Source: an uncultured Gammaproteobacteria bacterium (GTDB lineage: Bacteria; Patescibacteriota; Patescibacteriia; VMEV01; CAYQCH01). Taken from it: a stretch of 64,000 nt of DNA. A program made the translations under genes and the position numbers. Under the pieces are notes generated by a model. That model worked only from the letters and a program-made list of their open reading frames with translations, searched no databases and was not told where the DNA came from. Below, in pieces: positions 5,372 through 55,746 of this stretch (position 1 is the stretch's first letter; the number at the start of each line of letters is the position of its first letter). The DNA lies in NCBI GenBank assembly GCA_964503955.1, contig CAZDCG010000001.1, positions 316,210 through 380,209 of the forward strand, read 5' to 3'.

Positions 5372-5447
5372 GGACCGGTGGTGTAGCGGTTAACATGCCT
5401 CCCTGTCACGGAGGAGATCGCGGGTTCGATTCCCGTCCGGTCCGCCA
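5372..5447 (+). tRNA. tRNA-Asp (anticodon GTC)
   Basis: GGACCGGTGGTGTAGCGGTTAACATGCCTCCCTGTCACGGAGGAGATCGCGGGTTCGATTCCCGTCCGGTCCGCCA. The cloverleaf, CTGTCAC anticodon loop, GTTCGATTC T-loop and encoded CCA are very close to E. coli tRNA-Asp. Confidence 0.9.
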
Positions 5448-6628
5448 CGAAGAGCCCCGTATTCACGGGGTTTTTCGTTTTGGGGCGCGGGCGTGTTGCC
5501 CACGGGTTGCCCAAGGATTGCTGAAGTCGGCGCCAGTGTCGGCGTGAGCGGCCCCAACTGGAAGACGAAGGACGATACCTCTCGCGCCGGCGAGAGCGGC
5601 CGACGGTCAAGCCGATCGACGAACTCCTTGAGGCGAGAGGGCTCGAGGTGGCTGTAGCGCATGGTGACCCGAATGTCACTATGGCCCAGCAGTTCCTGCA
5701 CGACCTTGAGGTGAGCGCCCGTTGCCACGAGGTGCGAGGCGAAGGTGTGGCGCAGTACATGCCACCCGACTTTGCGGAGGCCGGCAGCGGCGCACGCTTG
5801 CTTGAGCACGCGCGCCATGGCGTCTTGGTCCGAGTGCTTGCGGCCCGCGTCTTGCCCGAAGACAAAGCCCCTGCGGTGCGGCCATGCCCTCAGTGCTTCC
5901 TTCACGTCCTCGCTGAGCGGCACGTGGCGGATCTTGTTGCTCTTGGGAGGGCCGAGGCGGCGTCTCACCAGTGCCCGCCTCACCGTCAGCAGGCTCCCCT
6001 CGAGGTCGACGTCGGACCAGTCCAGCGCCAGCAGCTCTCCCAGGCGGAGCCCGGTGCGCATGGCGACGAGCACGACTCCACGCCAGAACGTGTCCTTCAT
6101 GCTCCGCAAGAGACGTTCGCTCTCCTCCAGCGTGAGGAAGTCGAACGCCTGAGGTGGAACGGGAAGAAGCCGGATCTTCGGGCGGCGGTCGAGCTCGCCC
6201 CACTCCTCGGCAATGCTAAGAGCCCGGCCGAGGGCGGCCAGGTAGTTGTTGACGGTCTTGGGCGCATAACCCTCTGCGCGCCTCGCCGCCTTGAAGCTCT
6301 CGATCAGCTTGGGGGAGATCTCATCGAGCCCGCACTCCCCGAAGAAGGGCAAGAGCTGACGGTCCAGAATAGACCGCTTCGTGCGCTGCTCGGAGTGGCG
6401 GTTGTTGGGCACGACGTACTCTCGGTACCACCGCTCGGCGAACTCCGCGAAAGTGGTGGCCTTGACGACAGGTGCGTCTGGATCAAAGCCGAGCGCGAGC
6501 TGGCGGCGGAAGTAGGTTTCGTACGCGGCAGCGCCCGCCCGGCTGCTTTCCGGGCTCTTGCGGCGATAGCGGATGCCAGCGTGGCGGAAGTCAATCCACC
6601 AGCGGTTGCGGATCTTGCGAGCGCTCAT
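5390..6628 (-). CDS. int: tyrosine-type site-specific integrase (phage-integrase family)
   Basis: Core-binding and catalytic domains with R...HVLRHTFASHLV (HxxR)...RVTMRYSHL (catalytic Tyr). The ORF runs with no stop through the att core and into the tRNA on the opposite strand, so the last ~60 codons are probably not authentic or reflect the recombinant junction. Confidence 0.9.
   Translation of the reverse strand: MSARKIRNRWWIDFRHAGIRYRRKSPESSRAGAAAYETYFRRQLALGFDPDAPVVKATTFAEFAERWYREYVVPNNRHSEQRTKRSILDRQLLPFFGECGLDEISPKLIESFKAARRAEGYAPKTVNNYLAALGRALSIAEEWGELDRRPKIRLLPVPPQAFDFLTLEESERLLRSMKDTFWRGVVLVAMRTGLRLGELLALDWSDVDLEGSLLTVRRALVRRRLGPPKSNKIRHVPLSEDVKEALRAWPHRRGFVFGQDAGRKHSDQDAMARVLKQACAAAGLRKVGWHVLRHTFASHLVATGAHLKVVQELLGHSDIRVTMRYSHLEPSRLKEFVDRLDRRPLSPAREVSSFVFQLGPLTPTLAPTSAILGQPVGNTPAPQNEKPREYGALRGGPDGNRTRDLLRDREAC
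5424..5448 (+). repeat. attL core (within tRNA-Asp 3' end)
   Basis: Exact 25-nt match to 9326-9350. Confidence 0.85.
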
Positions 6629-6894
6629 GGGGTGTTGTCGTCAACGGAGCCCACGCGGTGCTTGGCCAAGTAGGCCGCCAGGTCCTCCCGCGAGAAGCGC
6701 AGACTGCGGAGTACGCGGTGGAAGGGCAGCCGGCGCTGCTCCACAAGTCTGTAGACGCTGGCCCTGGAGATACCCAGCTGGCGGGCGACCTGGTCTGGCG
6801 TGAGGAGAAGGGGCGGCAAGGCGTGGTCCGGACGATGATGCCGTGGTTGGGCCGAATTGCGCAAATCCGGACTGTGGATAAGATCGTTGAGCAT
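6625..6894 (-). CDS. xis: excisionase/AlpA-like helix-turn-helix DNA-binding protein
   Basis: LLTPDQVARQLGISRASVYRLVEQRRLPFHRV is the HTH_17/Xis signature; overlaps the int start by 4 nt (xis-int operon). Confidence 0.7.
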   Translation of the reverse strand: MLNDLIHSPDLRNSAQPRHHRPDHALPPLLLTPDQVARQLGISRASVYRLVEQRRLPFHRVLRSLRFSREDLAAYLAKHRVGSVDDNTP

Positions 6895-7074
6895 GTTTTA
6901 TGTGGCTAAGGCTAGCGGAGAATCTATGTCCTCCCGCCCGGCAGGGACACGAACCTCGGTCGGTGTCCCTGCCAGGGTGACGGCGGCGCGAGGTGCGGCC
7001 GCACAGGCGCGAGGGCGCCCGGGAGGTGGCCAGCGGTGAGCTGGCCACGCCCGTGCCCGGGCGCTTCCGACCGG

Positions 7075-7635
7075 TCACGAGCTTGGCCTTCTCGTAGGCG
7101 GGAGAATCTTCTGCTCAATCAGATATGCCGCACCCACGGCTGCAGCGTCGAACATGTTGAGCCAGAAGGTCTCCTTCCACGCGTGGGTCTGGATCTTGTA
7201 AATCGCTAGTTCGGGGTAACGACGAATGATCTCGGTGGCGACAGTGGGCTTCTTGGCGTTTCCGTTCAGGCAGAGAATCGCTCGCGCTGAGCGCGGGGCA
7301 TACTCGACGACCAAGCCGTCGACGACGACGACCCGCTGCTCTCCGCTAGTGCGGACCGTCACCCGGTCGTTCACGACGACGGCGTCGCCGCTTCCGGGCT
7401 CGAGATCGAAGAACGTCTGCTGCTCGTCTTGGCTCACCCGGCAATCGTGCCTTACGGCCTCGTTGCCGCAAGGCAATAACGGGACACGTTCTGGTCCGCG
7501 CAATTGCCCGAGCGCTCCCGGGCCAAGCCCGCCTGTAGCGGCATCAGCAGGCGCTACGAGCCGCCGGCGGAGTCGAAAGGCGGACACATTGCGGTCCGCA
7601 GCTACCCGGCTGCCAGCCCTGCTACGACAGGGCAT
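7075..7635 (-). CDS. island cargo, hypothetical protein (start uncertain; the N-terminal ~60 codons may be non-coding)
   Basis: Only non-low-complexity frame in GC-rich DNA; the C-terminal ~110 aa (VVVNDRVTVRTSGEQRVVVVDGLVVEYAPRSARAILCLNGNAKKPT...IYKIQTHAWKETFWLNMFDAAAVGAAYLIEQK) is globular-looking; no family recognised by eye. Confidence 0.35.
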   Translation of the reverse strand: MPCRSRAGSRVAADRNVSAFRLRRRLVAPADAATGGLGPGALGQLRGPERVPLLPCGNEAVRHDCRVSQDEQQTFFDLEPGSGDAVVVNDRVTVRTSGEQRVVVVDGLVVEYAPRSARAILCLNGNAKKPTVATEIIRRYPELAIYKIQTHAWKETFWLNMFDAAAVGAAYLIEQKILPPTRRPSS

Positions 7636-7975
7636 GTCAGGAGGTCTGGAGTCTGGAGGAGGTGCGCGCCCACTTCCGGCGCCGCCTCGACGCCTACGTC
7701 TGCGAGGTCATGACCGAGCGCGCGTCCGCGCGCGCGGCGCTGGCCCCCAGGAAGGCCGACGATCGCAGCGCGACACTCCCCTACGGCTGCGGGACCTACT
7801 GGCTGGTCCGCTTCCACGGCGCGTCATGCGAGCACGCCCCGCCGGCCTGAGCGGCGAGCCGGGCCGCCGCGACGCGAGGCGCCCGGCGCGAGCGAGCTCG
7901 ATTGCGCGGCGCGCAGGCCGAGCGTGGATCGACGGAGCGCTGGAGCTCGCGGACGGCGCGGCAGTACCTGCCCAC

Positions 7976-8611
7976 TCACTGACCAGGACGAGGCGGAGCA
8001 TGCGCGAGAGCACTGAACTCGCCTACGTTCTGCATGGCATAATCAATAAGGCAATCATAAACGCGATCGCACTCGCCCTCAAAATTTAGAAACACCCTAC
8101 CCACAACGGTATCCTCCAAGCGCCCGTCGTATGCCCCGATACTCTCCAAGAACTCTCGACGTGCGTCGAGGTCTAGATGGGGATTTGGCCCTGGGAATGC
8201 GGCTACCGCCTCCGCCAAGTAACGAGCGGCATCGCGTGCCCCTATCTCCTCCAATGCCTGCACAAAAACAGAATACGACGGATTCCCGCCCCCGGCGAGA
8301 AGGTAGCAGTAGGCGTCGAGCAGAAACGGCTTGGCCTGGTCGAAGTCGAGCCAGATCAGGGCGTCAGCAATTTGACACCGCTCGCCAAAGTCGGCAAAAT
8401 CAAGAACGCTCACGTGGGGTGTTTCCTCGTGGGCCAGGATCCAGTTTACGCTGGACCTGGGGTAGCAGGTGGCTCCACCGCCTGCTGCCCGAACCCAGCA
8501 CTTGATCCCCCTGGCAGCCCTGGCGCAGTCAGGGGGTTTTCGTTGCAGGAGGGCGTGATCGATAGGCCGAGGGTGCTGCACCCGGCAAAAACAACGGACA
8601 GCATGGCACAA
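7976..8611 (-). CDS. island cargo, hypothetical protein (likely starts at the internal GTG near VSVLDFADF; ~145 aa)
   Basis: Conserved-looking region ...LDFADFGERCQIADALIWLDFDQAKPFLLDAYCYLLAGGGNPSYSVFVQALEEIG...; the N-terminal part of the long ORF is Cys/Arg-rich junk typical of wrong-frame GC-rich DNA. Confidence 0.4.
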   Translation of the reverse strand: MCHAVRCFCRVQHPRPIDHALLQRKPPDCARAARGIKCWVRAAGGGATCYPRSSVNWILAHEETPHVSVLDFADFGERCQIADALIWLDFDQAKPFLLDAYCYLLAGGGNPSYSVFVQALEEIGARDAARYLAEAVAAFPGPNPHLDLDARREFLESIGAYDGRLEDTVVGRVFLNFEGECDRVYDCLIDYAMQNVGEFSALAHAPPRPGQ

Positions 8612-8727
8612 ATAACGGCGATGACGGCTACTTTGCTAGTCGAGCCACCACTCTCGCGGCCAGTGGTCTGTGCATAGCCCTTGACAGTTAAGGAATTATG
8701 AACCAATCTCTGCCTAGAGTCGCTCAC
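8446..8727 (-). CDS. possible small lipoprotein (signal peptide + FAGC lipobox), island cargo
   Basis: Alternative frame overlapping the 5' end of the previous ORF: ...KVAVIAVICAMLSVVFAGCSTLGLSITPSCNENP... has a classic n-h-c lipoprotein signal; ends just before the probable GTG start of the downstream gene. Confidence 0.25.
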   Translation of the reverse strand: MSDSRQRLVHNSLTVKGYAQTTGRESGGSTSKVAVIAVICAMLSVVFAGCSTLGLSITPSCNENPLTAPGLPGGSSAGFGQQAVEPPATPGPA

Positions 8728-9325
8728 CTTTGTCCTCCCGTGGAAGGGTGCGCGATCCGCTGCTCCGGGAGCACCAGATCCGCCACCTGTGGCCTTGCTC
8801 CAGGTGCGTCAACACCCGGGGCTCGCGGCTCAGCGGCCCCCGAGGTCTACAGCTTCGGGGGTCTTCTCGCGCGAAAACCGATCTGACGATTCCGTGTGTC
8901 GGGCCCAGAGTCAACTGATTTCCCAACGACAGAATGAAAACCTCTCCACACCTTCTCAACGTCCGAGGCAGGGGCGCGTAACGCGCTGTTCTGTCAGGCC
9001 TTGCTCTTCGCGCGCGGTGGAGAGCAGGGCGAGAGTGACCAGGGCACAGACGGACAGGAGTCGCCTCCCTCGCTCCCGCTGCGAGATCGTCTTGTGGGAC
9101 GAGAGAGCAGTCGGACGAGATCCCACCGAGTCAGCGACTTGGCACCTGTGGCCGGTCTGGTCGTCCATGAGCTCCGGCGTTGACCGTTGCCCACCGATTG
9201 CCCAGGAAGTGCGGATTCAGCGGGGAAACAGCGCTGAACTGACCTGAGCTGAGAATCTCGATTCTGAGCTAAGGTTAGAGGAATTCCGCTAGAGCTAGCG
9301 ACGCTTCCGCTTTCGCCTCCTGCGC

Positions 9326-15788: not shown

Positions 15789-16874
15789 CTAGGGCTTGAA
15801 CTCCCAGACCTCGTGCTTGTCAGCATCGTAGAAGTAGGTCACGCCGTTATGCGGCTGGCCATCGTCCGAGACGCGGAAGTAGCTGTCGACGACGAACGGA
15901 GCGTCTGCCCCGCTCTGGCGCGTGAAGCTGTTGTCTGCCAGGTCGTAGACGTGCACCCGGTAGCCGGACGGCTGCGCGTCGTCCCTGAGCAGGAAGATCC
16001 TGCCGTTTCCGGCGAAGAGCACATCGCCGCTGATGCCGTCCGGGTGCGTGGCCCCCAGCGTCACCATCGGCTTGGACATGGCCAGCGTGGCGGGCAGGTC
16101 AATGCTCACGACGCGGCGGTTCTCGTTGACCTGCGCCTGTGACAGGTAGTACCCGCCGCCGAGGATGACGAAGGTGTCACCCACCACCGTGCCCAGGCCG
16201 CGGTGCGGGATGGCATCGAGGTCCTGCGTGGTGATCACGTCCCAGGTGTCGGTGCTCTCGTTGAACACATCCAGGCTGGCCTGCCGTTCGAGCTCGAAGC
16301 GGCTGATGTAGCCGTGGCCGGCCAGCAGGCGGTACATCCGCCCGTTGTAGACGAAGTAGTAGCCCTGCTCGTGGGCCGAAGCCGACAGCTTGACCCAGCC
16401 GTTCTGGCCGAGCCGCAGCATGGCCCCAACCGGCGCGGGACTGGGCGGCCACGCCAGCGAGGGCTGGATGGCGTAGAGCGCCTGCGCGGTTCTGAGCAGG
16501 GTCGCGCCGCTGTTCTCCAGGACATTGGGCACGACCATGCCGCCGAGCGGCGAGGAGGCGCCGTTCAGGTTGAACTTGGCGGCCTTGCTCGACACGTCCT
16601 CACCGACGGGGTTGGACGGGTCGTTCACGATCCCGCCCATGATGTGGACCTCCCGCAGCACCGGGTCGAAGTTGAACCCGGGCCCGGTCCAACCGATCTT
16701 GGCCGAACCGGCGACGAGCGAGGAGTCGAGCGTGGCCACCTTGGTCCAGGTGGCGTTGATGACGTTGGCCGTCGTGACGGCCGAAGTGCCGGGCGAAGTC
16801 GAACGGCTGGTATTGCAGCCGGCCAGGACGATCAGCAGCCCGCAGAGAGCCGCGGAAGCGAAAACGTGTCGCAT
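15789..16874 (-). CDS. GC-rich lipoprotein, hypothetical (possibly beta-propeller-like)
   Basis: Lipoprotein signal MRHVFASAALCGLLIVLAGC; TTGACA-17-TATTTT promoter and GGAGAGGGG SD upstream; GC content clearly above neighbours. Confidence 0.6.
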   Translation of the reverse strand: MRHVFASAALCGLLIVLAGCNTSRSTSPGTSAVTTANVINATWTKVATLDSSLVAGSAKIGWTGPGFNFDPVLREVHIMGGIVNDPSNPVGEDVSSKAAKFNLNGASSPLGGMVVPNVLENSGATLLRTAQALYAIQPSLAWPPSPAPVGAMLRLGQNGWVKLSASAHEQGYYFVYNGRMYRLLAGHGYISRFELERQASLDVFNESTDTWDVITTQDLDAIPHRGLGTVVGDTFVILGGGYYLSQAQVNENRRVVSIDLPATLAMSKPMVTLGATHPDGISGDVLFAGNGRIFLLRDDAQPSGYRVHVYDLADNSFTRQSGADAPFVVDSYFRVSDDGQPHNGVTYFYDADKHEVWEFKP

Positions 16875-46691: not shown

Positions 46692-46947
46692 AAAAAACGA
46701 CGTTTGGAGTGGATACTAGATTAGCATAGATGGAATAGACGTACCAGACGTTTTCAATTTATTGCTCTTGTATCTTAATACTGGATATCTAGAACTCCGG
46801 ATCTCTGAATACCTTATTGAAAAATGTAAGGCTTCAGATGCAAGATACAAGATTCCAGAAATCAGACGCTAGATTGAAAGCAAAAATCCTTCCCCGCGCC
46901 TCCTCGCGGGAAAGGATATTGCCTCCTAAAAATTGTGTTGTTGCCCG

Positions 46948-47841
46948 TTACGACTGCGTGCCGGCGGGTACATCTTCAAGCGCGCTGCGGAATCCGAATT
47001 CGCGCAGGCACCAGCGCTCAACCGATCCCCCTTTCCGCACCGGATTATCCGCCTCCTGCGGATCAGCATCCTGAGGCCAGACAGCGTCCGGCGTGAAGTT
47101 GGTGAACCAGACAAGACTTACCTTGGTCCAGCTCGCCTTGGGCACGCCATGCTCCACGGCGGACGAGCGGTTGCCACAGAGCCAGAGCGAAAGCGACTTC
47201 CCGAAATTGTGGACGATAAGAGGCCCCGGGCCTTCCACCTCCACATCAAAGAGCACTCCGTTCCGGCGGATCTGAAACGGCTTTTGAAAAACCAATCCAG
47301 CGACCGCGCTGGTATCAAGGTGCATCTTGGAAAAGCCGGTCTTGGCCTGGTACCGATTGATCCGTCCGGCCGAAAAGACTCCATGCGCGCTCAGAGCTTC
47401 GCGCAGCTCCTGCACGTCCCGTCCGTAGAAGCGGGCGGCGGCGCTGGCCGCTGCCACATTGGAACGATGCAGCAGCATGCTCACCCTGAGCAGACGGTCG
47501 GTAGACGCGCGCAGGGTCTCGGGAAATCCTCCCTCCATTTGGAAACTGTAGTAGTCCTTGTTCTCCGGCTCTTGCTCGCCCTCCTGAGTCTCCCTGCCGG
47601 TAGCCGTGGGACCTCGCATGCCATGATGCGTGCGCGGACATTGCCGGAGAATCTCATTCCACTCCTCAAAGAGGCGGTAGCAGAACTCCATGGTGCGGGA
47701 GAAGTCTGTTCCCCGAAACGGCAGGTGGGAGACAGCCGTTACCCCCCATTCGTGAAGCTCTGCGCCGGCTTGGGCGGCCTCAGTGCTGTTCACGTCTTCA
47801 AGCAGCGGAAACGGTCTGGCCTTGAGCATGAGTCGAGGCAT
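46948..47841 (-). CDS. hypothetical protein in a GC-rich patch (start at MPRLMLK after an AGGAGGG SD)
   Basis: Clean ORF in a GC-rich region with an SD; no family recognised. Confidence 0.45.
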   Translation of the reverse strand: MPRLMLKARPFPLLEDVNSTEAAQAGAELHEWGVTAVSHLPFRGTDFSRTMEFCYRLFEEWNEILRQCPRTHHGMRGPTATGRETQEGEQEPENKDYYSFQMEGGFPETLRASTDRLLRVSMLLHRSNVAAASAAARFYGRDVQELREALSAHGVFSAGRINRYQAKTGFSKMHLDTSAVAGLVFQKPFQIRRNGVLFDVEVEGPGPLIVHNFGKSLSLWLCGNRSSAVEHGVPKASWTKVSLVWFTNFTPDAVWPQDADPQEADNPVRKGGSVERWCLREFGFRSALEDVPAGTQS

Positions 47842-47998
47842 CAAGCCCTCCTTTTCGAGAGGAGAATAGCATGCTCGAACAGACCTTGTCATTAGTTGCG
47901 AGCTGCGGGTTACAAGTTGAAGGGCAAGCAATGGATGAATCTCTCATAAACAAATCCAGGGATTTTGCCCTGGATTTTCCGGTTTTTTCTAACAATCC

Positions 47999-50883: not shown

Positions 50884-51278
50884 TTCACTACAAATTACAA
50901 ATTTTACGACGAATCTACAAATCGAGATTCAATACACGCATAAACTTACACCGGAACTAGTGAAGTTTGCCAGAATCGCCAATTGTGTTTTTGTCGTTTT
51001 TAAATAATCCTTGACCTGTTGGATATTTTTTCGAGAAAAATGATTACCTTGCTTTAACTCAAGGATAATTTTTCCTTCGACCAAAAAATCAAGATAGAAT
51101 GTCCCTATTTTCTTTTCTTTAAAGAACAAACGAGCGTGTAACTGACGTTCATATTCCATTCCCTTTTCATCAAGTTATAGACTTCAAAGAGAATTTCTAC
51201 AATCTGATAACTCAATTCACTGTAAATTACCTTCTGTTCTGACACTTGTAGATTTGAAGCCAATTTGTAATTCGTAGT
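50884..51278. mobile_element. Degenerate GxxExxY cassette (inverted-repeat bounded) inserted between pheS and pheT
   Basis: Inverted repeats cactacaaattacaaatt...aatctacaaatc (50884-50925) and cttgtagatttg...caatttgtaattcgtagtgg (51245-51278) flank a truncated GxxExxY ORF. Confidence 0.65.
50929..51159 (-). pseudogene. truncated GxxExxY-family gene (C-terminal half only)
   Basis: MEYERQ...FYLDFLVEGKIILELKQGNHF...QVKDYLKTTKTQLAILANF aligns to the C-terminal half of 26852..27280; the N-terminal GxxExxY region is missing. Confidence 0.6.
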
Positions 51279-51285
51279 GGAGAAA

Positions 51286-52347
51286 TCAAAATTGCTCCAA
51301 AAATCTCAAATCATTTCGATACAGTTCGCGCAAGTCAGGAATCGAAAGCCCTTCGCGCATTAACGCGACGCGCTCAACCCCCCAGCCGAAAGCGAATCCA
51401 TTGTACTTCTTCGTGTCAATCTTTCCCGCTTTGAGTACATTTGGATGCACCATGCCGGATCCTCCAAGCTCAAGCCATCCTTCCTTACAGAATTTGCAGC
51501 CTTCACCTTTGCAAAGTCCGCAGGTGATATCGATTTCAAAGCTCGGCTCCGTAAACTTGAAATGAAATGGCCGGAACCGGATTTCACGATCCTGCCCGAA
51601 AAAGGATTTGGCAAAATATTCCATCACGCCTTTCAGATGGCTGATACTTACGCCCTCATCGATGTACAAACCCTCAAACTGATGAAACATTTGCGTATGC
51701 GTCACGTCGGCCTGGCGGCGATAGCATTTGGCAATATTGATCATGCGGATGGGCAGCTCTCCTTTTTCCATTTCACGCACCTGCGCATTAGACGTATGCG
51801 GCGTAAGGATGACGCGTTCTCCTTTGGCATCCGGTTCGGTGACAAAGAAGGTTTCCCAGTCATCGCGCGCGGGATGATCCTGCGGCATATTCAGCCCTTC
51901 AAACGCGTAGTAATCTGATTCCACTTCAGGATAGCGGACGCGCGCAAACCCAATGCGTTTGAAAATGTCGGTGATTTCACGGATCGTTTGAGTGACCAAA
52001 TGCAAATGGCCTTGCGCGGGAGCAAGCGGCGGCAAGGTCAAATCAACCGCCAGCGAAGCCTCTTCCGCTTCCTTCTTTTTTCCCTCGTAAGCGGCTTCAA
52101 GCGCTTTTTTCAGCTCATTCGCCAATGGACCGATTTCACGTTTTTCTTCCACCGGCAGCCCGCCAAGCGACTTCATAATTTCCGTGAGCTTTCCCTGTTT
52201 GCGGCCGAGATATTGAATATGCCACGCGTCAAGCGCTTTGAGATCTGTCACTTGTTTAAGCGCATCAAGCGCCTCTTTTCGAAGTTGGTCTAACTTGTCT
52301 TTCATAATGATTTGGTAACATCTGGAAACGTATGGTACGTCTGGCAT
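51286..52347 (-). CDS. pheS: phenylalanyl-tRNA synthetase alpha subunit
   Basis: Class II motifs; ends ...LRFLEQF followed by a TGA stop, which shows TGA is a stop in this genome. Confidence 0.95.
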   Translation of the reverse strand: MPDVPYVSRCYQIIMKDKLDQLRKEALDALKQVTDLKALDAWHIQYLGRKQGKLTEIMKSLGGLPVEEKREIGPLANELKKALEAAYEGKKKEAEEASLAVDLTLPPLAPAQGHLHLVTQTIREITDIFKRIGFARVRYPEVESDYYAFEGLNMPQDHPARDDWETFFVTEPDAKGERVILTPHTSNAQVREMEKGELPIRMINIAKCYRRQADVTHTQMFHQFEGLYIDEGVSISHLKGVMEYFAKSFFGQDREIRFRPFHFKFTEPSFEIDITCGLCKGEGCKFCKEGWLELGGSGMVHPNVLKAGKIDTKKYNGFAFGWGVERVALMREGLSIPDLRELYRNDLRFLEQF

Positions 52348-52411
52348 TATTTAATGATTATACGCTATCAAACAAGCAACATTTTGACAAAATGCCATCA
52401 ACTCGTCATAG

Positions 52412-52975
52412 ATGATGCCAAAGGAGGAAGAAGTGCTGTGCAAAAACCAATGCGGAAAACCGGAATACCTTGAAGATCTCTGCGAGGATTGCCATAAAGA
52501 GGCAAGACTCAAGGCCATCGAGGAACGAATTCGCCGGGAGGAAAGCGAACTCACGCCGGCAGAAGACAGGAAGCGTGCCGACCTTGCTCTAAAAGAGCTT
52601 GTAAACAATCAGCCTCTTTCAGAGCCGCCGAAGAAAGCCGCGCGGCCAAAAAAGAAGAAGCGGTCAGCGGCAAAATCGGCACAAGCTGCTGCGGTAAAAA
52701 CGAACGAGAAGCAGCCTCGATCCGCGCTAAAGCAGAAGCGAACCAAGCCGACCACGGTTGAATCAACACCCGCCAAGGCAACCTGCCTGGTGCCGGATTG
52801 CAGTGAAGCGCCGGACCGCGACGGTCTTTGCGTCTGCTGCCGCTCCATGCTGATCCTGTGGCGAAATGAGCGCGATCGTCTGGACAAATGCCCCATCCTG
52901 ATTTCGGGCAGCCAGGTGGAGACCTTCAAGCGGCACTTCCCGGATCGCGCTGCCGAAATGGATCCCGGTGCCTGA
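52412..52975 (+). CDS. Cys-module protein with a Lys/Ala-rich linker (probable start at GTG 52433 after AAGGAGG)
   Basis: Two C-x3-C-x7-8-LC-x-x-C-H/R modules (CKNQCGKPEYLEDLCEDCH; CLVPDCSEAPDRDGLCVCCR) of the same type as the downstream gene. Confidence 0.45.
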   Translation: MMPKEEEVLCKNQCGKPEYLEDLCEDCHKEARLKAIEERIRREESELTPAEDRKRADLALKELVNNQPLSEPPKKAARPKKKKRSAAKSAQAAAVKTNEKQPRSALKQKRTKPTTVESTPAKATCLVPDCSEAPDRDGLCVCCRSMLILWRNERDRLDKCPILISGSQVETFKRHFPDRAAEMDPGA

Positions 52976-53067
52976 CAGGTGCCGGGATCTCTTCATTTCA
53001 AAAACCGTTGACAAAAACAATTTTTTGCCGTTCAATAATCTACCGCCTGAAGAGAAAGGAGTGTGAA

Positions 53068-54129
53068 ATGGATTCTGTGTTATCCAGCAGTCACAAGCCC
53101 CTTCCTCAAGGGCGCGACAGGAAACCACGCTGGGAGGTCTGCCGAAACGGCTGCGCCGAAATTGTATTCGCAAACGGTATCTGCATTGACTGTTTTCTTG
53201 GCGGAGTCCACGCTCTTGTTAAGAAACCCGTTTTACAGCCACCAGCACCAGCAAAACCTGAACCACCACTACCGCCGCCCCCACAAGCCTTTTCATGGAT
53301 TTGCGCTCACTGCACAGATCCGGTTTACCGCGGAATTTACTGCAAAGGGCACTGGACTTTGCTTACCCCGTCCTTTTGTGCAAGAGAGGGGTGCCGCAAG
53401 CTCATCGCCGCAGGAGATTACTGCAAAGAGCACTATGAGGAGTGGTGGAAGGAAAGGACCAGAAAGCGCGGGCAAAGCGGCTGTCTAGCGGCTGAAGTCA
53501 AATGCAATCGATCGCATAAGTCTCATGGGTTGTGCGAAAGACATTACAGCCAATTTCGAAAGCACGGCGATACATCCTACCTGCTGCCCCGGCTGCGATT
53601 GAAATGCCGCTTTCCGGATTGCGGCCGGTATCGCGGCTCAGGAGGCTATTGTTCAACGCACGCCGCTCAACTGCGCGCAACCGGAAAAACACGAGCAATC
53701 AGGCCTTCGAAAATGGCCGAATACTGTTCCATGCCGAGATGCGGACAACCCCATCACGCCAAAGGATATTGTCACGAGCACTATGGCAAATTCCTGAGAC
53801 GTAAGGGGAGAACACCCCACCCCGTCTGCGCGCATCCAGGCTGTGAACGGCGCACAACAGAGAAGTATTGCAAAACACATCGCAGACAGTTCCTCAAGCA
53901 TGGCCGCACCACTGACATACGGACAGGCCCCGTACTCTGCGAGATCCCCCAATGCGGAGGCATTCACCGCAACACCGGACTCTGCCGTAGACATACGCGA
54001 GTGCTTGAGCGTCTTGTGCGCCGCATGACGGAAGATTTCCACTGGCCAACCCCCGAGGAGCGCCAGGTTCACGCGATTGCCTTGAGTCATGGATCTCAGG
54101 TTGCAAAACGTGTCATTCTCGTCGCCTAA
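53068..54129 (+). CDS. protein with ~8 tandem C-x2-4-C-x6-9-C-x2-H zinc-finger-like modules
   Basis: Repeats such as CRNGCAEIVFANGICIDCF, CAREGCRKLIAAGDYCKEHY, CRFPDCGRYRGSGGYCSTHA, CSMPRCGQPHHAKGYCHEHY, CAHPGCERRTTEKYCKTHR, CEIPQCGGIHRNTGLCRRHT; AAAGGAG SD. Confidence 0.55.
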   Translation: MDSVLSSSHKPLPQGRDRKPRWEVCRNGCAEIVFANGICIDCFLGGVHALVKKPVLQPPAPAKPEPPLPPPPQAFSWICAHCTDPVYRGIYCKGHWTLLTPSFCAREGCRKLIAAGDYCKEHYEEWWKERTRKRGQSGCLAAEVKCNRSHKSHGLCERHYSQFRKHGDTSYLLPRLRLKCRFPDCGRYRGSGGYCSTHAAQLRATGKTRAIRPSKMAEYCSMPRCGQPHHAKGYCHEHYGKFLRRKGRTPHPVCAHPGCERRTTEKYCKTHRRQFLKHGRTTDIRTGPVLCEIPQCGGIHRNTGLCRRHTRVLERLVRRMTEDFHWPTPEERQVHAIALSHGSQVAKRVILVA

Positions 54130-54134
54130 TACAC

Positions 54135-54175
54135 CCCGCAAGCAAGGAGGAGCTCGCGGGGTGCTTCTTTTTTCT
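54135..54175 (+). terminator. rho-independent terminator (caccccgc...gcggggtg + TTCTTTTTT)
   Basis: Hairpin plus T-run after the zinc-finger gene. Confidence 0.6.
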
Positions 54176-54177
54176 CC

Positions 54178-54212
54178 CTTGACATTCCGCTTTTTATCCC
54201 GTATTCTCAATC
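54178..54212 (+). promoter_or_regulatory. sigma70-like promoter TTGACA-17-TATTCT for the small-peptide gene
   Basis: cTTGACAttccgctttttatcccgTATTCT; the same architecture as the promoter of the 10911 small gene. Confidence 0.5.
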
Positions 54213-54288
54213 ATTATTCTCCTCTCCGGTTCTCTGCTTTGCTGCCGGCAGAGAACTGGAAAATCATTTCCAGTAGAGGAGGCTGTGT

Positions 54289-54468
54289 ATGTTCAAGCCC
54301 AGCAACGCCGCTACCAAGCCCGAGTGCGTGGCCCCCTGCAAGGAGGTGAGCGATCCGTTCGCGTCCTCCGAACAGGAGGTGCGCCGCGACGGCAACGGTG
54401 CAGCGCAGCTGGACGATGGTCCCTGCGAGGATCTGTACGACGACAACTTCTACGCCGGCGCCGACTAG
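54289..54468 (+). CDS. small acidic Cys-containing peptide (59 aa), not in the ORF track
   Basis: AGAGGAGG SD; the leader ttctcctctcc can pair with the SD; MFKPSNAATKPECVAPCKEVSD...DDGPCEDLYDDNFYAGAD; followed by an 11-bp perfect hairpin terminator (gaccccgattc...gaatcggggtc). Confidence 0.4.
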   Translation: MFKPSNAATKPECVAPCKEVSDPFASSEQEVRRDGNGAAQLDDGPCEDLYDDNFYAGAD

Positions 54469-54756
54469 CGCCCGCCGCCACCGTCGCAAGACACCAAGAC
54501 CCCGATTCGTCATCCGTGACACAAGAATCGGGGTCTTCTACGTTTCTCCCTCGTCACCTTATCCTTAATCTTCCCCTTAAACGAAAAGGAGGAGAACCTG
54601 AAGGATAAGAAAAACAAGCAACCCGCGAACTCGCTAACCCGTTAACTCGTCAACACGTTAACGCTTTTGACAAATCCCCCACCCAAACCTACGCTGTAGT
54701 TACATCCTATCAGCGGTTTTCCTACAGCCTACCTCCTACCGCCTTGAACCTAACCT

Positions 54757-55746
54757 ATGAAACAACGCATTCTTTCGGGCGTGCAGCCCTCAGGCGACCT
54801 TCATATCGGCAACTATATCGGCGCGCTCAAACAATGGGTGAATCTTCAGGACAAGTATGAAAATTACTTCTGCGTGGTGGATCACCATGCTATAACCGTT
54901 CCCCAAGATCCGCAGGATTTACGCCGCCGAACGGTTGAAATTGCCAAATGGTATCTTGCCTGCGGTATTGATCCTGATCGGTCAACAATTTTTATCCAGT
55001 CGCATGTTCCGGCACATACCGAGCTAGCCTGGATTCTTTCTTCCCTGACAAAAATCCCCGAAATGGAACGCATGACACAGTTCAAGGACAAATCCGCCAA
55101 GTCGCCAAAGAACGTGAATGCCGGTTTATTCACCTATCCTATTTTGATGGCAGCGGATATCCTGCTCTATCAAGCAAACCTCGTGCCTGTTGGAGATGAC
55201 CAGACTCAGCATCTGGAATTTACGCGCGTGATCGCTCGACGATTCAACCAGCACTATCAGCAGGAAATTTTTACTGAGCCGGAACAATTCACCCCGCCCC
55301 AGGGAGCGCGCGTCATGTCTTTAAGCGAGCCGGAGAAGAAAATGAGCAAAAGCGACCGTTCGCAAAACTCGCTCATTTATTTGATTGACGATGAAGAAAC
55401 GATCAAGAAGAAAATCAAAAAGGCAGTCACCGATTCCGGCGATGAAATCGAATACAGCGACAATAAACCGGCGCTGAAAAACCTGCTGACAATTTATAGC
55501 GCGTTTTCCGGCGAACCGATCCCGCAAATTGTGAAACATTATAACGGCATGGGATATAAACTCTTCAAAGAAGGCTTGTCAAAAACGATTATCGAGGGTC
55601 TCCGACCGATTCAGGAAACCTACGCCAAGCTTGAGAAAGATCCTTCCTATGTCCATGCGATTCTTGCAAACGGCGCGGAGAAAGCAAATCAGCTCGCGCA
55701 ATCAACTCTGCGTAATATCAAAAACGCCGTGGGATATTATTCATAA
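54757..55746 (+). CDS. trpS: tryptophanyl-tRNA synthetase
   Basis: SGVQPSGDLHIGNY (HIGH) and KMSKS motifs; 329 aa. Confidence 0.95.
   Translation: MKQRILSGVQPSGDLHIGNYIGALKQWVNLQDKYENYFCVVDHHAITVPQDPQDLRRRTVEIAKWYLACGIDPDRSTIFIQSHVPAHTELAWILSSLTKIPEMERMTQFKDKSAKSPKNVNAGLFTYPILMAADILLYQANLVPVGDDQTQHLEFTRVIARRFNQHYQQEIFTEPEQFTPPQGARVMSLSEPEKKMSKSDRSQNSLIYLIDDEETIKKKIKKAVTDSGDEIEYSDNKPALKNLLTIYSAFSGEPIPQIVKHYNGMGYKLFKEGLSKTIIEGLRPIQETYAKLEKDPSYVHAILANGAEKANQLAQSTLRNIKNAVGYYS

What the first reader, a model, noticed from the sequence alone, without database searches (positions are those of the whole stretch)
52412..54520. GC-rich locus: two proteins built from a repeated Cys4/Cys3His module plus a tightly regulated 59-aa acidic Cys peptide
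Gene 53068..54129 contains ~8 tandem C-x2-4-C-x6-9-(G/Y)-x-C-x2-H modules. Gene 52412..52975 contains two modules of the same type split by a Lys/Ala-rich linker. Immediately downstream is a self-contained unit: a TTGACA-17-TATTCT promoter, a leader whose ttctcctctcc can pair with the AGAGGAGG SD, a 59-aa peptide ending ...DDGPCEDLYDDNFYAGAD, then an 11-bp perfect hairpin terminator. All three genes carry strong SDs in a genome whose core genes lack them, and the region is GC-richer than its surroundings, so it looks horizontally acquired. A multi-zinc-finger scaffold next to a small acidic Cys peptide could be a metal/redox chaperone system, a peptide-modification or RiPP-like system lacking an obvious enzyme, or a novel nucleic-acid-binding module. 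No known operon type matches.
Basis: partly seen in the sequence, partly recalled or inferred. Interest (0 to 1): 0.62.

Follow-up and report, generated by a model that had tools for sequence, protein, structure and literature searches.

The report
Nuclease-free zinc-finger array protein locus
Between two tRNA-synthetase genes of an uncultured Patescibacteria (CPR) bacterium sits a protein made of eight copies of the zinc-finger module that phage homing endonucleases normally carry next to their nuclease, here with no nuclease, beside a small two-finger protein and an unrelated orphan mini-gene; it is an unusual member of a catalogued but unstudied family, not a new three-gene system.

Summary
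Gene B (53068-54129) has eight Cys-rich modules. Six are significant matches to the C-x4-C-x9-C-x2-H repeat found in over 2,700 protein clusters. Most of those proteins carry a C-terminal nuclease (HNH, endonuclease VII, GIY-YIG, LAGLIDADG); phage relatives are annotated 'HNH endonuclease'. B has no nuclease domain and none is detectable downstream. About 14% of its relatives, some in phages, are also module-only.

Gene A (likely start GTG 52433) has two Cys4 variants of the module; this assignment is only weakly supported.

A, B and the 59-aa ORF C are three separate promoter-SD-ORF-hairpin cassettes, not an operon. They are not conserved together. One sister genome has only a 16-module B-like gene at the same pheS-trpS site. 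Another has only an A-like gene. C has no homologue anywhere searched, and its GC3 of 0.87 is foreign to this genome.

Most likely B, and perhaps A, are DNA-binding proteins derived from the non-catalytic part of homing endonucleases, and C is an unrelated orphan. The RiPP and metallochaperone readings have no support. Verdict: a new member of a known kind, of modest interest.

The parts
52384..52389 (+). -35-like TTGACA upstream of gene A (17 nt, then CATAGA)
   Evidence: Read from the sequence and listed. The first 16 nt (TTGACAAAATGsCATC) are shared with the region upstream of the A-like gene in L006.
52433..52975 (+). pI 9.1. Two Cys4 modules at 52439-52495 and 52784-52840, a Lys/Ala/Pro-rich linker, and a C-terminal motif CRS-x4-WR-x8-CP.
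   Evidence: The SD AAGGAGG at 52421-52427 is 5 nt before the GTG. An A-like protein is present in L006.
52960..52990 (+). Hairpin with a 14-bp stem straddling the stop codon of A; terminator-like.
   Evidence: Folding gives -27.9 kcal/mol, z -5.8.
53008..53013 (+). -35-like TTGACA upstream of gene B. The SD AAAGGAG lies at 53055-53061.
53068..54129 (+). Gene B, 353 aa, pI 9.75: an array of eight zinc-finger-like modules with no nuclease domain.
53140..53352 (+). B modules 1 (Cys4, 53140-53193) and 2 (53302-53352), with a Pro-rich linker between them. They are non-canonical but are shared with the L005 B-like protein.
53377..53994 (+). B modules 3-8, the canonical C-x4-C-x9-C-x2-H type followed by a helical HY-x-[RQK]-x4-G tail.
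   Evidence: Module HMM i-E 6e-10 to 3e-3. PHROG 5351 matches at 3e-31 over aa 217-315. The two-module AF2 model has pLDDT 76.
54132..54175 (+). Intrinsic-terminator-like hairpin (CACCCCGC...GCGGGGTG) plus a T-run after gene B.
   Evidence: -21.4 kcal/mol, z -3.0.
54179..54207 (+). Promoter-like TTGACA-17-TATTCT of ORF C.
54217..54282 (+). Leader of C: a 14-bp hairpin (54225-54260) enclosed by pairing between UCUCCUC and the SD AGAGGAGG (54275-54282).
54289..54468 (+). ORF C: 59 aa, pI 4.1, 3 Cys, GC3 0.87. An orphan.
54496..54537 (+). Hairpin with 13-bp perfect arms after ORF C; the T-run is weak.
54667..54672 (+). -35-like TTGACA of trpS. It marks the end of the islet.

Best explanation
The 2.4-kb stretch between pheS and trpS is a variable islet holding three independent single-gene cassettes. 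It is not an operon or a system.

Gene B encodes a basic protein made of eight tandem zinc-binding modules. Each module has a Cys knuckle, a short beta-hairpin, and a helix that carries the C-x2-H ligands. Six of the modules belong to the C-x4-C-x9-C-x2-H repeat family. In most other members this family forms the non-catalytic part of phage and bacterial homing-type endonucleases, usually N-terminal to the nuclease.

B has lost, or never had, the nuclease. I infer that it binds double-stranded DNA along an extended site, with each module and its basic helical tail contacting a few base pairs. It would then act only by occupancy, as a repressor or site-protecting factor, or it may be a still-folded leftover of a mobile gene.

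Gene A is a lineage-specific two-finger relative with a basic linker, and probably also binds nucleic acid.

ORF C is an unrelated, strain-specific small gene with the codon usage of a high-GC donor. It is probably translatable, but it has no demonstrable link to A or B.

Shown here: family membership of the modules, absence of a nuclease, cassette structure, lack of co-conservation, and C's orphan status and foreign composition. Inferred: zinc binding, DNA binding, and any regulatory role.
For: Family and architecture:
- B hits PHROG 5351, 1271 and 3593 ('HNH endonuclease') at 3e-31, 3e-13 and 1e-4. The match covers only the non-catalytic profile positions 6-111 of 171.
- An exhaustive HMMER search gave 2,704 representative clusters at E<=1e-3. 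All matches are at repeat level and none is full-length.
- 95% of 828 modules have the C-x4-C-x9-C-x2-H spacing, and six B modules score significantly.
- Among 107 top relatives, Pfam finds Zf_WRKY19 (39), HNH (23), DUF5763 (21), HNH_5 (19), HNH_3 (16), Endonuclease_7 (8), GIY-YIG (4) and LAGLIDADG_3 (2), plus Vsr, DUF559, a REase and several HTH domains. Fusion of one module to many unrelated nucleases is the signature of a targeting (DNA-binding) module.
- 111 of 148 relatives have an extra C-terminal domain and 21 of 148 are module-only.
- Module-only relative P0003 sits in a phage-like contig.
- Relatives of P0003 in sequenced phages are annotated HNH endonuclease, endonuclease VII or 'Cys-rich domain protein; may contain zinc fingers'. 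These include two adjacent paralogues in Bacillus phage 0305phi8-36.

No nuclease:
- B has no Pfam or NCBIfam nuclease hit.
- 116 C-terminal domains of relatives find nothing in six frames of 53950-54760.

Physical properties:
- B has pI 9.75 and A has pI 9.1.
- The AF2 two-module model has pLDDT 76, with 82-85 inside the modules.

Cassettes:
- An exact TTGACA lies upstream of each of A, B, C and trpS.
- A stable hairpin follows each of A, B and C.

Comparative evidence:
- L005 (pheS 76% identical) has trpS, a 545-aa 16-module B-like gene, then pheS. Its B-like protein shares the unusual N-terminal 'NGxCIDC' Cys4 module (BLASTP 6e-7). L005 has no A and no C.
- L006 (pheS 72% identical) has an A-like gene only (BLASTP 4e-5, with a shared promoter-region sequence).
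- All zinc-ligand positions are intact in B (32) and in the L005 protein (64), which argues against free decay.

ORF C:
- It has no homologue among 5.8 billion proteins, 1.65 Mb of related CPR loci, or viral contigs.
- Its GC3 is 0.87 against about 0.55 for the host genes.
Against: - No experiment or solved structure exists for this module. A profile search of PDB sequences and fold searches gave nothing significant. Zinc and DNA binding are therefore inferred from ligand spacing, charge and domain associations only.
- B itself does not reach any Pfam model at E<=1.
- Only one B-like and one A-like positional homologue were found, at about 26% identity. Selection therefore cannot be measured, and orthology of A with the L006 protein is weak (phmmer E 0.058).
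- The searches that found no homologue for A and C were word-indexed. They demonstrably missed the distant L005 and L006 relatives.
- The adjacency of A, B and C in this strain could still reflect a functional link that one genome cannot reveal.
Confidence: 0.6

Rival explanations
1. B (and A) are non-functional leftovers of a free-standing homing-endonuclease gene. That gene inserted between two conserved essential genes, spread, and then lost its nuclease. The ORFs persist only because decay is incomplete.
For: - Three quarters of relatives carry a nuclease.
- The islet lies between aminoacyl-tRNA synthetase genes. Its content differs among three sister genomes (A+B+C, B-like only, A-like only), as expected for gain and loss of selfish genes.
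- The genes are autonomous cassettes with SDs in an SD-poor genome.
- The L005 B-like gene is compositionally foreign to its genome.
Against: - All 32 zinc ligands of B and all 64 of the L005 protein are intact, with no frameshifts or stops.
- No trace of a decayed nuclease lies downstream.
- Module-only proteins make up a recurrent 14% of the family and occur in phage genomes.
- In this genome B's GC3 equals the host's, which suggests long residence.
Confidence: 0.25
2. One reading: A, B and peptide C work together. B/A would be a multi-zinc scaffold acting on the acidic Cys peptide, as a metal or redox chaperone or as RiPP-like maturation. Alternatively, C would be an acidic antagonist or DNA mimic of the basic finger proteins.
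For: - The three genes are adjacent and on the same strand in this strain.
- Their charges are opposite: B pI 9.75, A pI 9.1, C pI 4.1.
- C is probably coding and has an SD-occluding leader.
Against: - They are three separate transcription units.
- C is absent from both sister loci, where the gaps to trpS are 110 and 104 bp. It has no homologue anywhere searched.
- C's codon usage differs from that of A and B, so it arrived separately.
- The locus has no modifying enzyme, transporter or protease, and no Pfam, NCBIfam or PADLOC hit.
- Neither A nor B keeps the other as a neighbour in the sister genomes.
Confidence: 0.07
3. The modules bind RNA or protein rather than DNA. B would then be an RNA-binding protein or an assembly scaffold.
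For: - Small treble-clef-like fingers can bind RNA, ubiquitin or proteins. The best local structural fits, none significant, include A20 ZF7 and ribosomal zinc proteins as well as GATA and C2H2 DNA binders.
Against: The consistent fusion partners are DNA endonucleases and HTH domains. That points to DNA as the ligand.
Confidence: 0.08

Closest known systems
Cys3His repeat region of actinophage/bacterial 'HNH endonuclease' proteins (PHROG 5351, 1271, 3593; Pfam Zf_WRKY19 PF24906 and DUF5763 PF19067 hit the relatives)
   Same: It has the same C-x4-C-x9-C-x2-H spacing, the conserved Gly before the third Cys, and the HY-x-[RQK]-x4-G helical tail. The modules are arranged in tandem. HMM matches are significant.
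   Different: B has no nuclease domain, whereas 75% of relatives have an extra C-terminal domain. Its two N-terminal modules are non-canonical. B itself misses the Pfam thresholds. It lies in the chromosome of a CPR bacterium rather than in a phage or actinobacterium.
Module-only 'Cys-rich domain proteins' gp9/gp10 of Bacillus phage 0305phi8-36, and P0003 in a phage-like contig
   Same: These are nuclease-free arrays of the same module. In the Bacillus phage, two paralogues lie side by side, as A and B do here.
   Different: They are phage-borne and have fewer modules. No function is known for them either.
Modular DNA-binding domains of homing endonucleases (NUMOD, AP2, and the zinc finger of I-TevI)
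   Same: The logic is the same: small repeated modules attached to interchangeable nuclease domains, which confer target recognition. This rests on established knowledge (PMC5714182, PMC3943268) and on the domain associations.
   Different: The fold and sequence are different. DNA binding by the present module has not been demonstrated.
Eukaryotic tandem C2H2 zinc-finger arrays (Zif268, WT1, KLF4)
   Same: Both are tandem small zinc modules with a ligand-bearing helix. The number of modules also turns over quickly between relatives, 8 here against 16 in L005.
   Different: The ligand pattern differs: C-x4-C-x9-C-x2-H against C-x2-4-C-x12-H-x3-5-H. The structural matches are not significant (E > 0.5), so this is an analogy only.

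Membership tests
HNH-endonuclease-associated Cys3His repeat family (PHROG 5351/1271; Pfam Zf_WRKY19 / DUF5763 in relatives) | Four ligands with C-x4-C-x9-C-x2-H spacing, present in 95% of 828 modules of relatives | tested here: met
   Modules 3, 5, 6 and 8 have the exact spacing. Module 7 has x8. Module 4 has its first Cys displaced. Modules 1-2 deviate.
HNH-endonuclease-associated Cys3His repeat family (PHROG 5351/1271; Pfam Zf_WRKY19 / DUF5763 in relatives) | Significant profile match to the family | tested here: met
   PHROG 5351 matches at 3e-31. The module HMM gives a sequence E of 8e-37 with six significant domains. phmmer finds 2,704 clusters.
Pfam Zf_WRKY19 (PF24906) / DUF5763 (PF19067) as curated models | Score above the Pfam gathering threshold | tested here: not met
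   B has no hit at E<=1. 39 and 21 of 107 relatives do hit these models. The link is therefore transitive only.
HNH-endonuclease-associated Cys3His repeat family | One zinc ion bound per module | not testable with these tools
   This needs metal analysis of purified protein. The AF2 model places the four ligands together, at only moderate confidence.
His-Me finger (HNH) / other homing endonucleases | A catalytic nuclease domain (beta-beta-alpha-Me, GIY-YIG, LAGLIDADG or endonuclease VII) | tested here: not met
   B has no Pfam or NCBIfam nuclease hit. The PHROG match stops at profile position 111 of 171. No remnant is found downstream.
RiPP biosynthetic locus | A precursor peptide next to a modifying enzyme (YcaO, radical SAM, Lan or similar), conserved together | tested here: not met
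   No enzyme family was detected in A or B. C is not conserved.
Metallochaperone / redox system | A recognised metal-chaperone or thiol-redox domain (HMA, thioredoxin fold or similar) | tested here: not met
   No such Pfam or NCBIfam match.
Known anti-phage defence systems (PADLOC) | A match to any defence-system protein model | tested here: not met
   No hit for A, B, C or the L005 and L006 homologues.
Classical C2H2 zinc fingers | C-x2-4-C-x12-H-x3-5-H ligand pattern and a significant structural or sequence match | tested here: not met
   The spacing is different. The PDB profile search finds only knuckle-level matches at E>2. Foldseek E>0.8.

The most novel reading that the evidence does not exclude
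CPR bacteria keep, at a fixed chromosomal site, a rapidly diversifying nuclease-free poly-zinc-finger protein (8 modules here, 16 in a sister species). It would be derived from the non-catalytic module region of homing endonucleases and now act as a programmable sequence-specific DNA binder. Possible roles are protecting a homing-endonuclease or phage target site (anti-homing immunity) or repressing mobile DNA, a prokaryotic analogue of polydactyl zinc-finger repressors. The acidic peptide C could be its antagonist.
Probability: 0.08. Interest if true: 0.65.

Novelty: new member of a known kind. Interest (0 to 1): 0.3.

Why it matters
The C-x4-C-x9-C-x2-H module is very common: more than 2,700 clusters at 50% identity, attached to at least seven kinds of nuclease. 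I found no solved structure, no described function and no paper about it. A stable nuclease-free eight-finger protein, with a 16-finger counterpart at the same locus in a sister species, would be a convenient subject for two tests. One is whether the module is a modular DNA reader. The other is how its specificity scales with module number, which is of possible interest for homing-endonuclease biology and protein engineering. For genome annotation, the practical message is that such proteins should not be called 'HNH endonuclease' when the catalytic domain is missing. A second message is that the neighbouring small ORF is an orphan, not a partner.

Tried and rejected
- Pfam, NCBIfam and PADLOC scans of A, B and C gave nothing meaningful.
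- Rfam, at gathering threshold and at E<=1 over 52300-54800, found no RNA family, so the leader of C is not a known riboswitch or leader.
- A PDB sequence search with B and with a 100-module profile found nothing.
- tblastn of B against GenBank phages found no match at 1e-5. The canonical relative P0003 did match.
- Word-indexed homologue searches for A and C returned only themselves.
- Viral contigs had no relative of C. The family alignment was too divergent to use for a viral locus scan.
- A metagenome scan with pheS found no relative closer than 62%, so no further syntenic loci are available.
- Four Logan contigs carrying B match the window at 99.98-100% nucleotide identity (one mismatch in total, in L003), so they give no useful polymorphism data.
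- A search for a decayed nuclease downstream of B was negative.
- Tandem Repeats Finder found no recent DNA-level module duplication in B or in the L005 gene.
- The 14-nt direct repeat flanking the C cassette (54171 / 54543) and the 18-nt A/C similarity are within chance expectation for short two-copy repeats.
- The palindrome at the end of A is not convincingly repeated elsewhere.
Full report
**Setting.** The finding lies between pheS (51286-52347, minus strand) and trpS (54757-55746, plus strand). pheT, a glutamate racemase, a membrane protein and a phosphoglucomutase lie further out. The closest pheS relatives in GTDB species genomes are Patescibacteria/CPR MAGs (Levyibacteriota, Uhrbacteria, Microgenomates). 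Some are mislabelled 'uncultured Gammaproteobacteria'. The best three are 76%, 75% and 72% identical. Four Logan contigs carry the locus at 99.98-100% nucleotide identity, with one mismatch in total (L003). They are the same strain and give no useful variation.

**Observation.** Gene B (53068-54129, 353 aa) has 25 Cys, 23 His and pI 9.75. It has eight modules, one Cys4 and seven Cys3His. Gene A has two Cys4 modules separated by a Lys/Ala/Pro-rich linker. Gene callers chose that start on three of the identical contigs.

The 59-aa ORF C, its TTGACA-17-TATTCT box, its SD, its leader and its terminal hairpin are all present. The hairpin arms are 13 bp, not 11. The predicted leader structure pairs UCUCCUC with the SD around a 14-bp hairpin (-31.8 kcal/mol, z -3.8). 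C shows strong codon periodicity (GC1/2/3 = 0.65/0.45/0.87, p 1e-5). This fits the annotated frame better than the overlapping ORFs on either strand.

Strong SDs precede A, B and C, while almost none of about 45 long ORFs in the window has one.

The GC claim needs a qualification. A and B are GC-richer only at codon position 2, which reflects their Cys/Arg/Gly/Ala/Pro content. Their GC3 (0.62 and 0.55) equals that of the neighbours (0.54-0.60). Only C is compositionally foreign.

**What the module is.**
- Pfam and NCBIfam give nothing for A, B or C.
- B matches three PHROG families annotated 'HNH endonuclease'. The best is phrog_5351 at 3e-31, and the match covers only profile positions 6-111 of 171.
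- An exhaustive phmmer search of 1.84 billion cluster representatives found 2,704 proteins at E<=1e-3. Apart from B itself, none aligns over B's full length. The similarity is between repeats.
- In 148 top hits I extracted 828 modules. 95% have the spacing C-x4-C-x9-C-x2-H, with consensus C-x3-G-C-x7-G-x-C-x2-H-Y-x-R-x4-G.
- An HMM of these modules scores B modules 3-8 significantly. It does not score modules 1-2 or the A modules (A module 2: i-E 0.08; hhalign P 5e-4).
- Cys4 variants of otherwise canonical modules exist in the family, so A's C-x4-C-x9-C-x2-C is a plausible variant.
- Pfam on 107 relatives shows Zf_WRKY19 (39), DUF5763 (21) and many nuclease domains: HNH, HNH_3, HNH_5, Endonuclease_7, GIY-YIG, LAGLIDADG_3, Vsr, DUF559 and a REase. 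There are a few HTH domains as well.
- 111 of 148 relatives have an extra C-terminal domain, and 21 of 148 are module-only.
- The canonical module-only relative P0003 lies in a phage-like contig.
- P0003's relatives in sequenced Mycobacterium, Gordonia, Propionibacterium, Arthrobacter and Microbacterium phages are annotated HNH endonuclease or endonuclease VII.
- Bacillus phage 0305phi8-36 has two adjacent paralogues annotated 'Cys-rich domain protein; may contain zinc fingers'.
- I found no paper naming these Pfam entries. Two papers on HNH enzymes mention flanking zinc fingers or modular DNA-binding domains only in general terms (PMC11855218, PMC5714182).

**No nuclease.** B's 44-residue tail after the last module is predicted helical. 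No nuclease family is detected. 116 C-terminal domains of relatives find nothing in the six-frame translation of 53950-54760.

**Organisation.** An exact TTGACA lies 49, 60, 110 and 90 nt upstream of A, B, C and trpS. That is four plus-strand hits in 2.3 kb, where about 0.65 would be expected from the window-wide density. Each of A, B and C is followed by a stable hairpin (-27.9, -21.4 and -24.4 kcal/mol; z -5.8, -3.0 and -4.1). The same layout, a terminator immediately followed by TTGACA, is seen in the sister loci. These are three monocistronic cassettes. C's 'self-contained unit' is simply the local norm.

**Comparative evidence.**
- In L005 (pheS 76%) the order PGM-membrane-murI-trpS ... 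pheS-pheT is conserved. The trpS-pheS gap holds a single gene for a 545-aa protein with 16 modules.
- That protein begins, like B, with a Cys4 'NGxCIDC' module, a Pro/Lys-rich spacer and a 'Y-x-G-I-Y-C-x2-H' module. It ends with three canonical modules that hit the same PHROGs (BLASTP 6e-7).
- L005 has no A-like gene, and only 110 bp separate the B-like gene from trpS.
- In L006 (72%) the gap holds a 232-aa A-like protein next to trpS, with a 104-bp gap. It has the same two Cys modules and the C-terminal motif CRS-x4-WR-x8-CP-x3-S-x2-Q-x3-FK (BLASTP 4e-5). It also shares the promoter-region sequence TTGACAAAATGsCATC.
- L006 additionally has a CitMHS-type transporter and a 230-aa ORF, but no B-like gene. 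L007 resembles L006.
- Across 1.65 Mb of pheS-centred CPR loci, the module HMM hits only L005. C hits nothing.
- C also has no relative among 5.8 billion proteins or in viral contigs.
- The L005 B-like gene has GC3 0.51 in a genome where its neighbours have 0.21-0.29. That suggests later arrival or transfer.
- The islet is thus a gain-and-loss hotspot. A, B and C are not co-inherited.

**Interpretation.** The module's attachment to many unrelated DNA endonucleases and to HTH domains points to DNA targeting. So do the basic charge of A and B and the intact ligand sets in B and its 16-module counterpart. On this basis I read B as a nuclease-free DNA-binding array derived from the non-catalytic module region of homing-type endonucleases. 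A would be a small relative, and C an unrelated orphan of high-GC origin. I give this reading a confidence of 0.6.

The main rival is that B and A are inert relics of a selfish gene (0.25). It shares the same origin story and differs only on present function. An RNA- or protein-binding role gets about 0.08.

**Verdict.** This is a new, nuclease-free, chromosomal CPR member of a known but unstudied repeat family. Interest 0.3.

Noticed in passing
window 5372-9000: tRNA-Asp (5372-5447, +) is directly abutted, and partly overlapped, by a tyrosine integrase gene (5390-6628, -; Phage_integrase 5e-32). An HTH_17 excisionase-like gene follows (6625-6894, -). Both sit in a 60-69% GC island within a genome of about 50% GC. 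This looks like an integrated element at a tRNA gene.
   Followed up: partly
window 50929-51159 (-): A 76-aa PDDEXK_3 gene sits between pheT and pheS. The sister locus L005 has only a 111-bp pheS-pheT gap there. This is another strain-specific small insertion next to the synthetase genes.
   Followed up: partly
whole window: Almost none of about 45 long ORFs has a Shine-Dalgarno sequence. This includes pheS, pheT, trpS and dnaE. A, B, C, the L005 B-like gene and the L006 A-like gene all have one.
   Followed up: partly
L005, L006 versus window: The three sister genomes share 72-76% pheS identity but differ greatly in base composition. The loci are 38% GC (L005), about 50% (window) and 57% (L006). 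pheS GC3 is 0.21, 0.54 and 0.61 respectively.
   Followed up: no
window 15789-16874 (-): A 361-aa ORF that begins like a lipoprotein has GC3 0.91. It is another compositionally foreign gene, with only a marginal Kelch hit.
   Followed up: no
window 52960-52990: A palindrome with a 14-bp stem (GGATCCCGGTGCC TGA CAGGTGCCGGGATCT; the scan counts G-T pairs) straddles the stop codon of gene A, 18 nt before B's TTGACA. It could be a terminator or a protein-binding site.
   Followed up: partly
window 54171-54184 and 54543-54556: A 14-nt direct repeat (TTTCTCCCTTGACA / TTTCTCCCTCGTCA, 372 nt apart) brackets the C cassette just after the terminators of B and of C. It might mark an insertion or duplication, but it is within chance expectation for short two-copy repeats.
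   Followed up: no
window 46933-47931: A 58.6% GC kilobase carries ORFs of 320 and 327 aa on opposite strands. Neither has a Pfam match.
   Followed up: no
L005 6238-7875 (-): In the 16-module protein, six consecutive modules (aa 121-251) are packed with only 3-residue linkers, giving a period of about 23 aa. They lack the helical HY-x-R tail seen in B and in phage relatives. This is a compact array subtype.
   Followed up: no
L166 (Bacillus phage 0305phi8-36, gp9/gp10): Two adjacent paralogous module-only 'Cys-rich domain proteins' lie next to a DNA-repair exonuclease subunit gene in a jumbo phage. This is a precedent for paired nuclease-free arrays.
   Followed up: no
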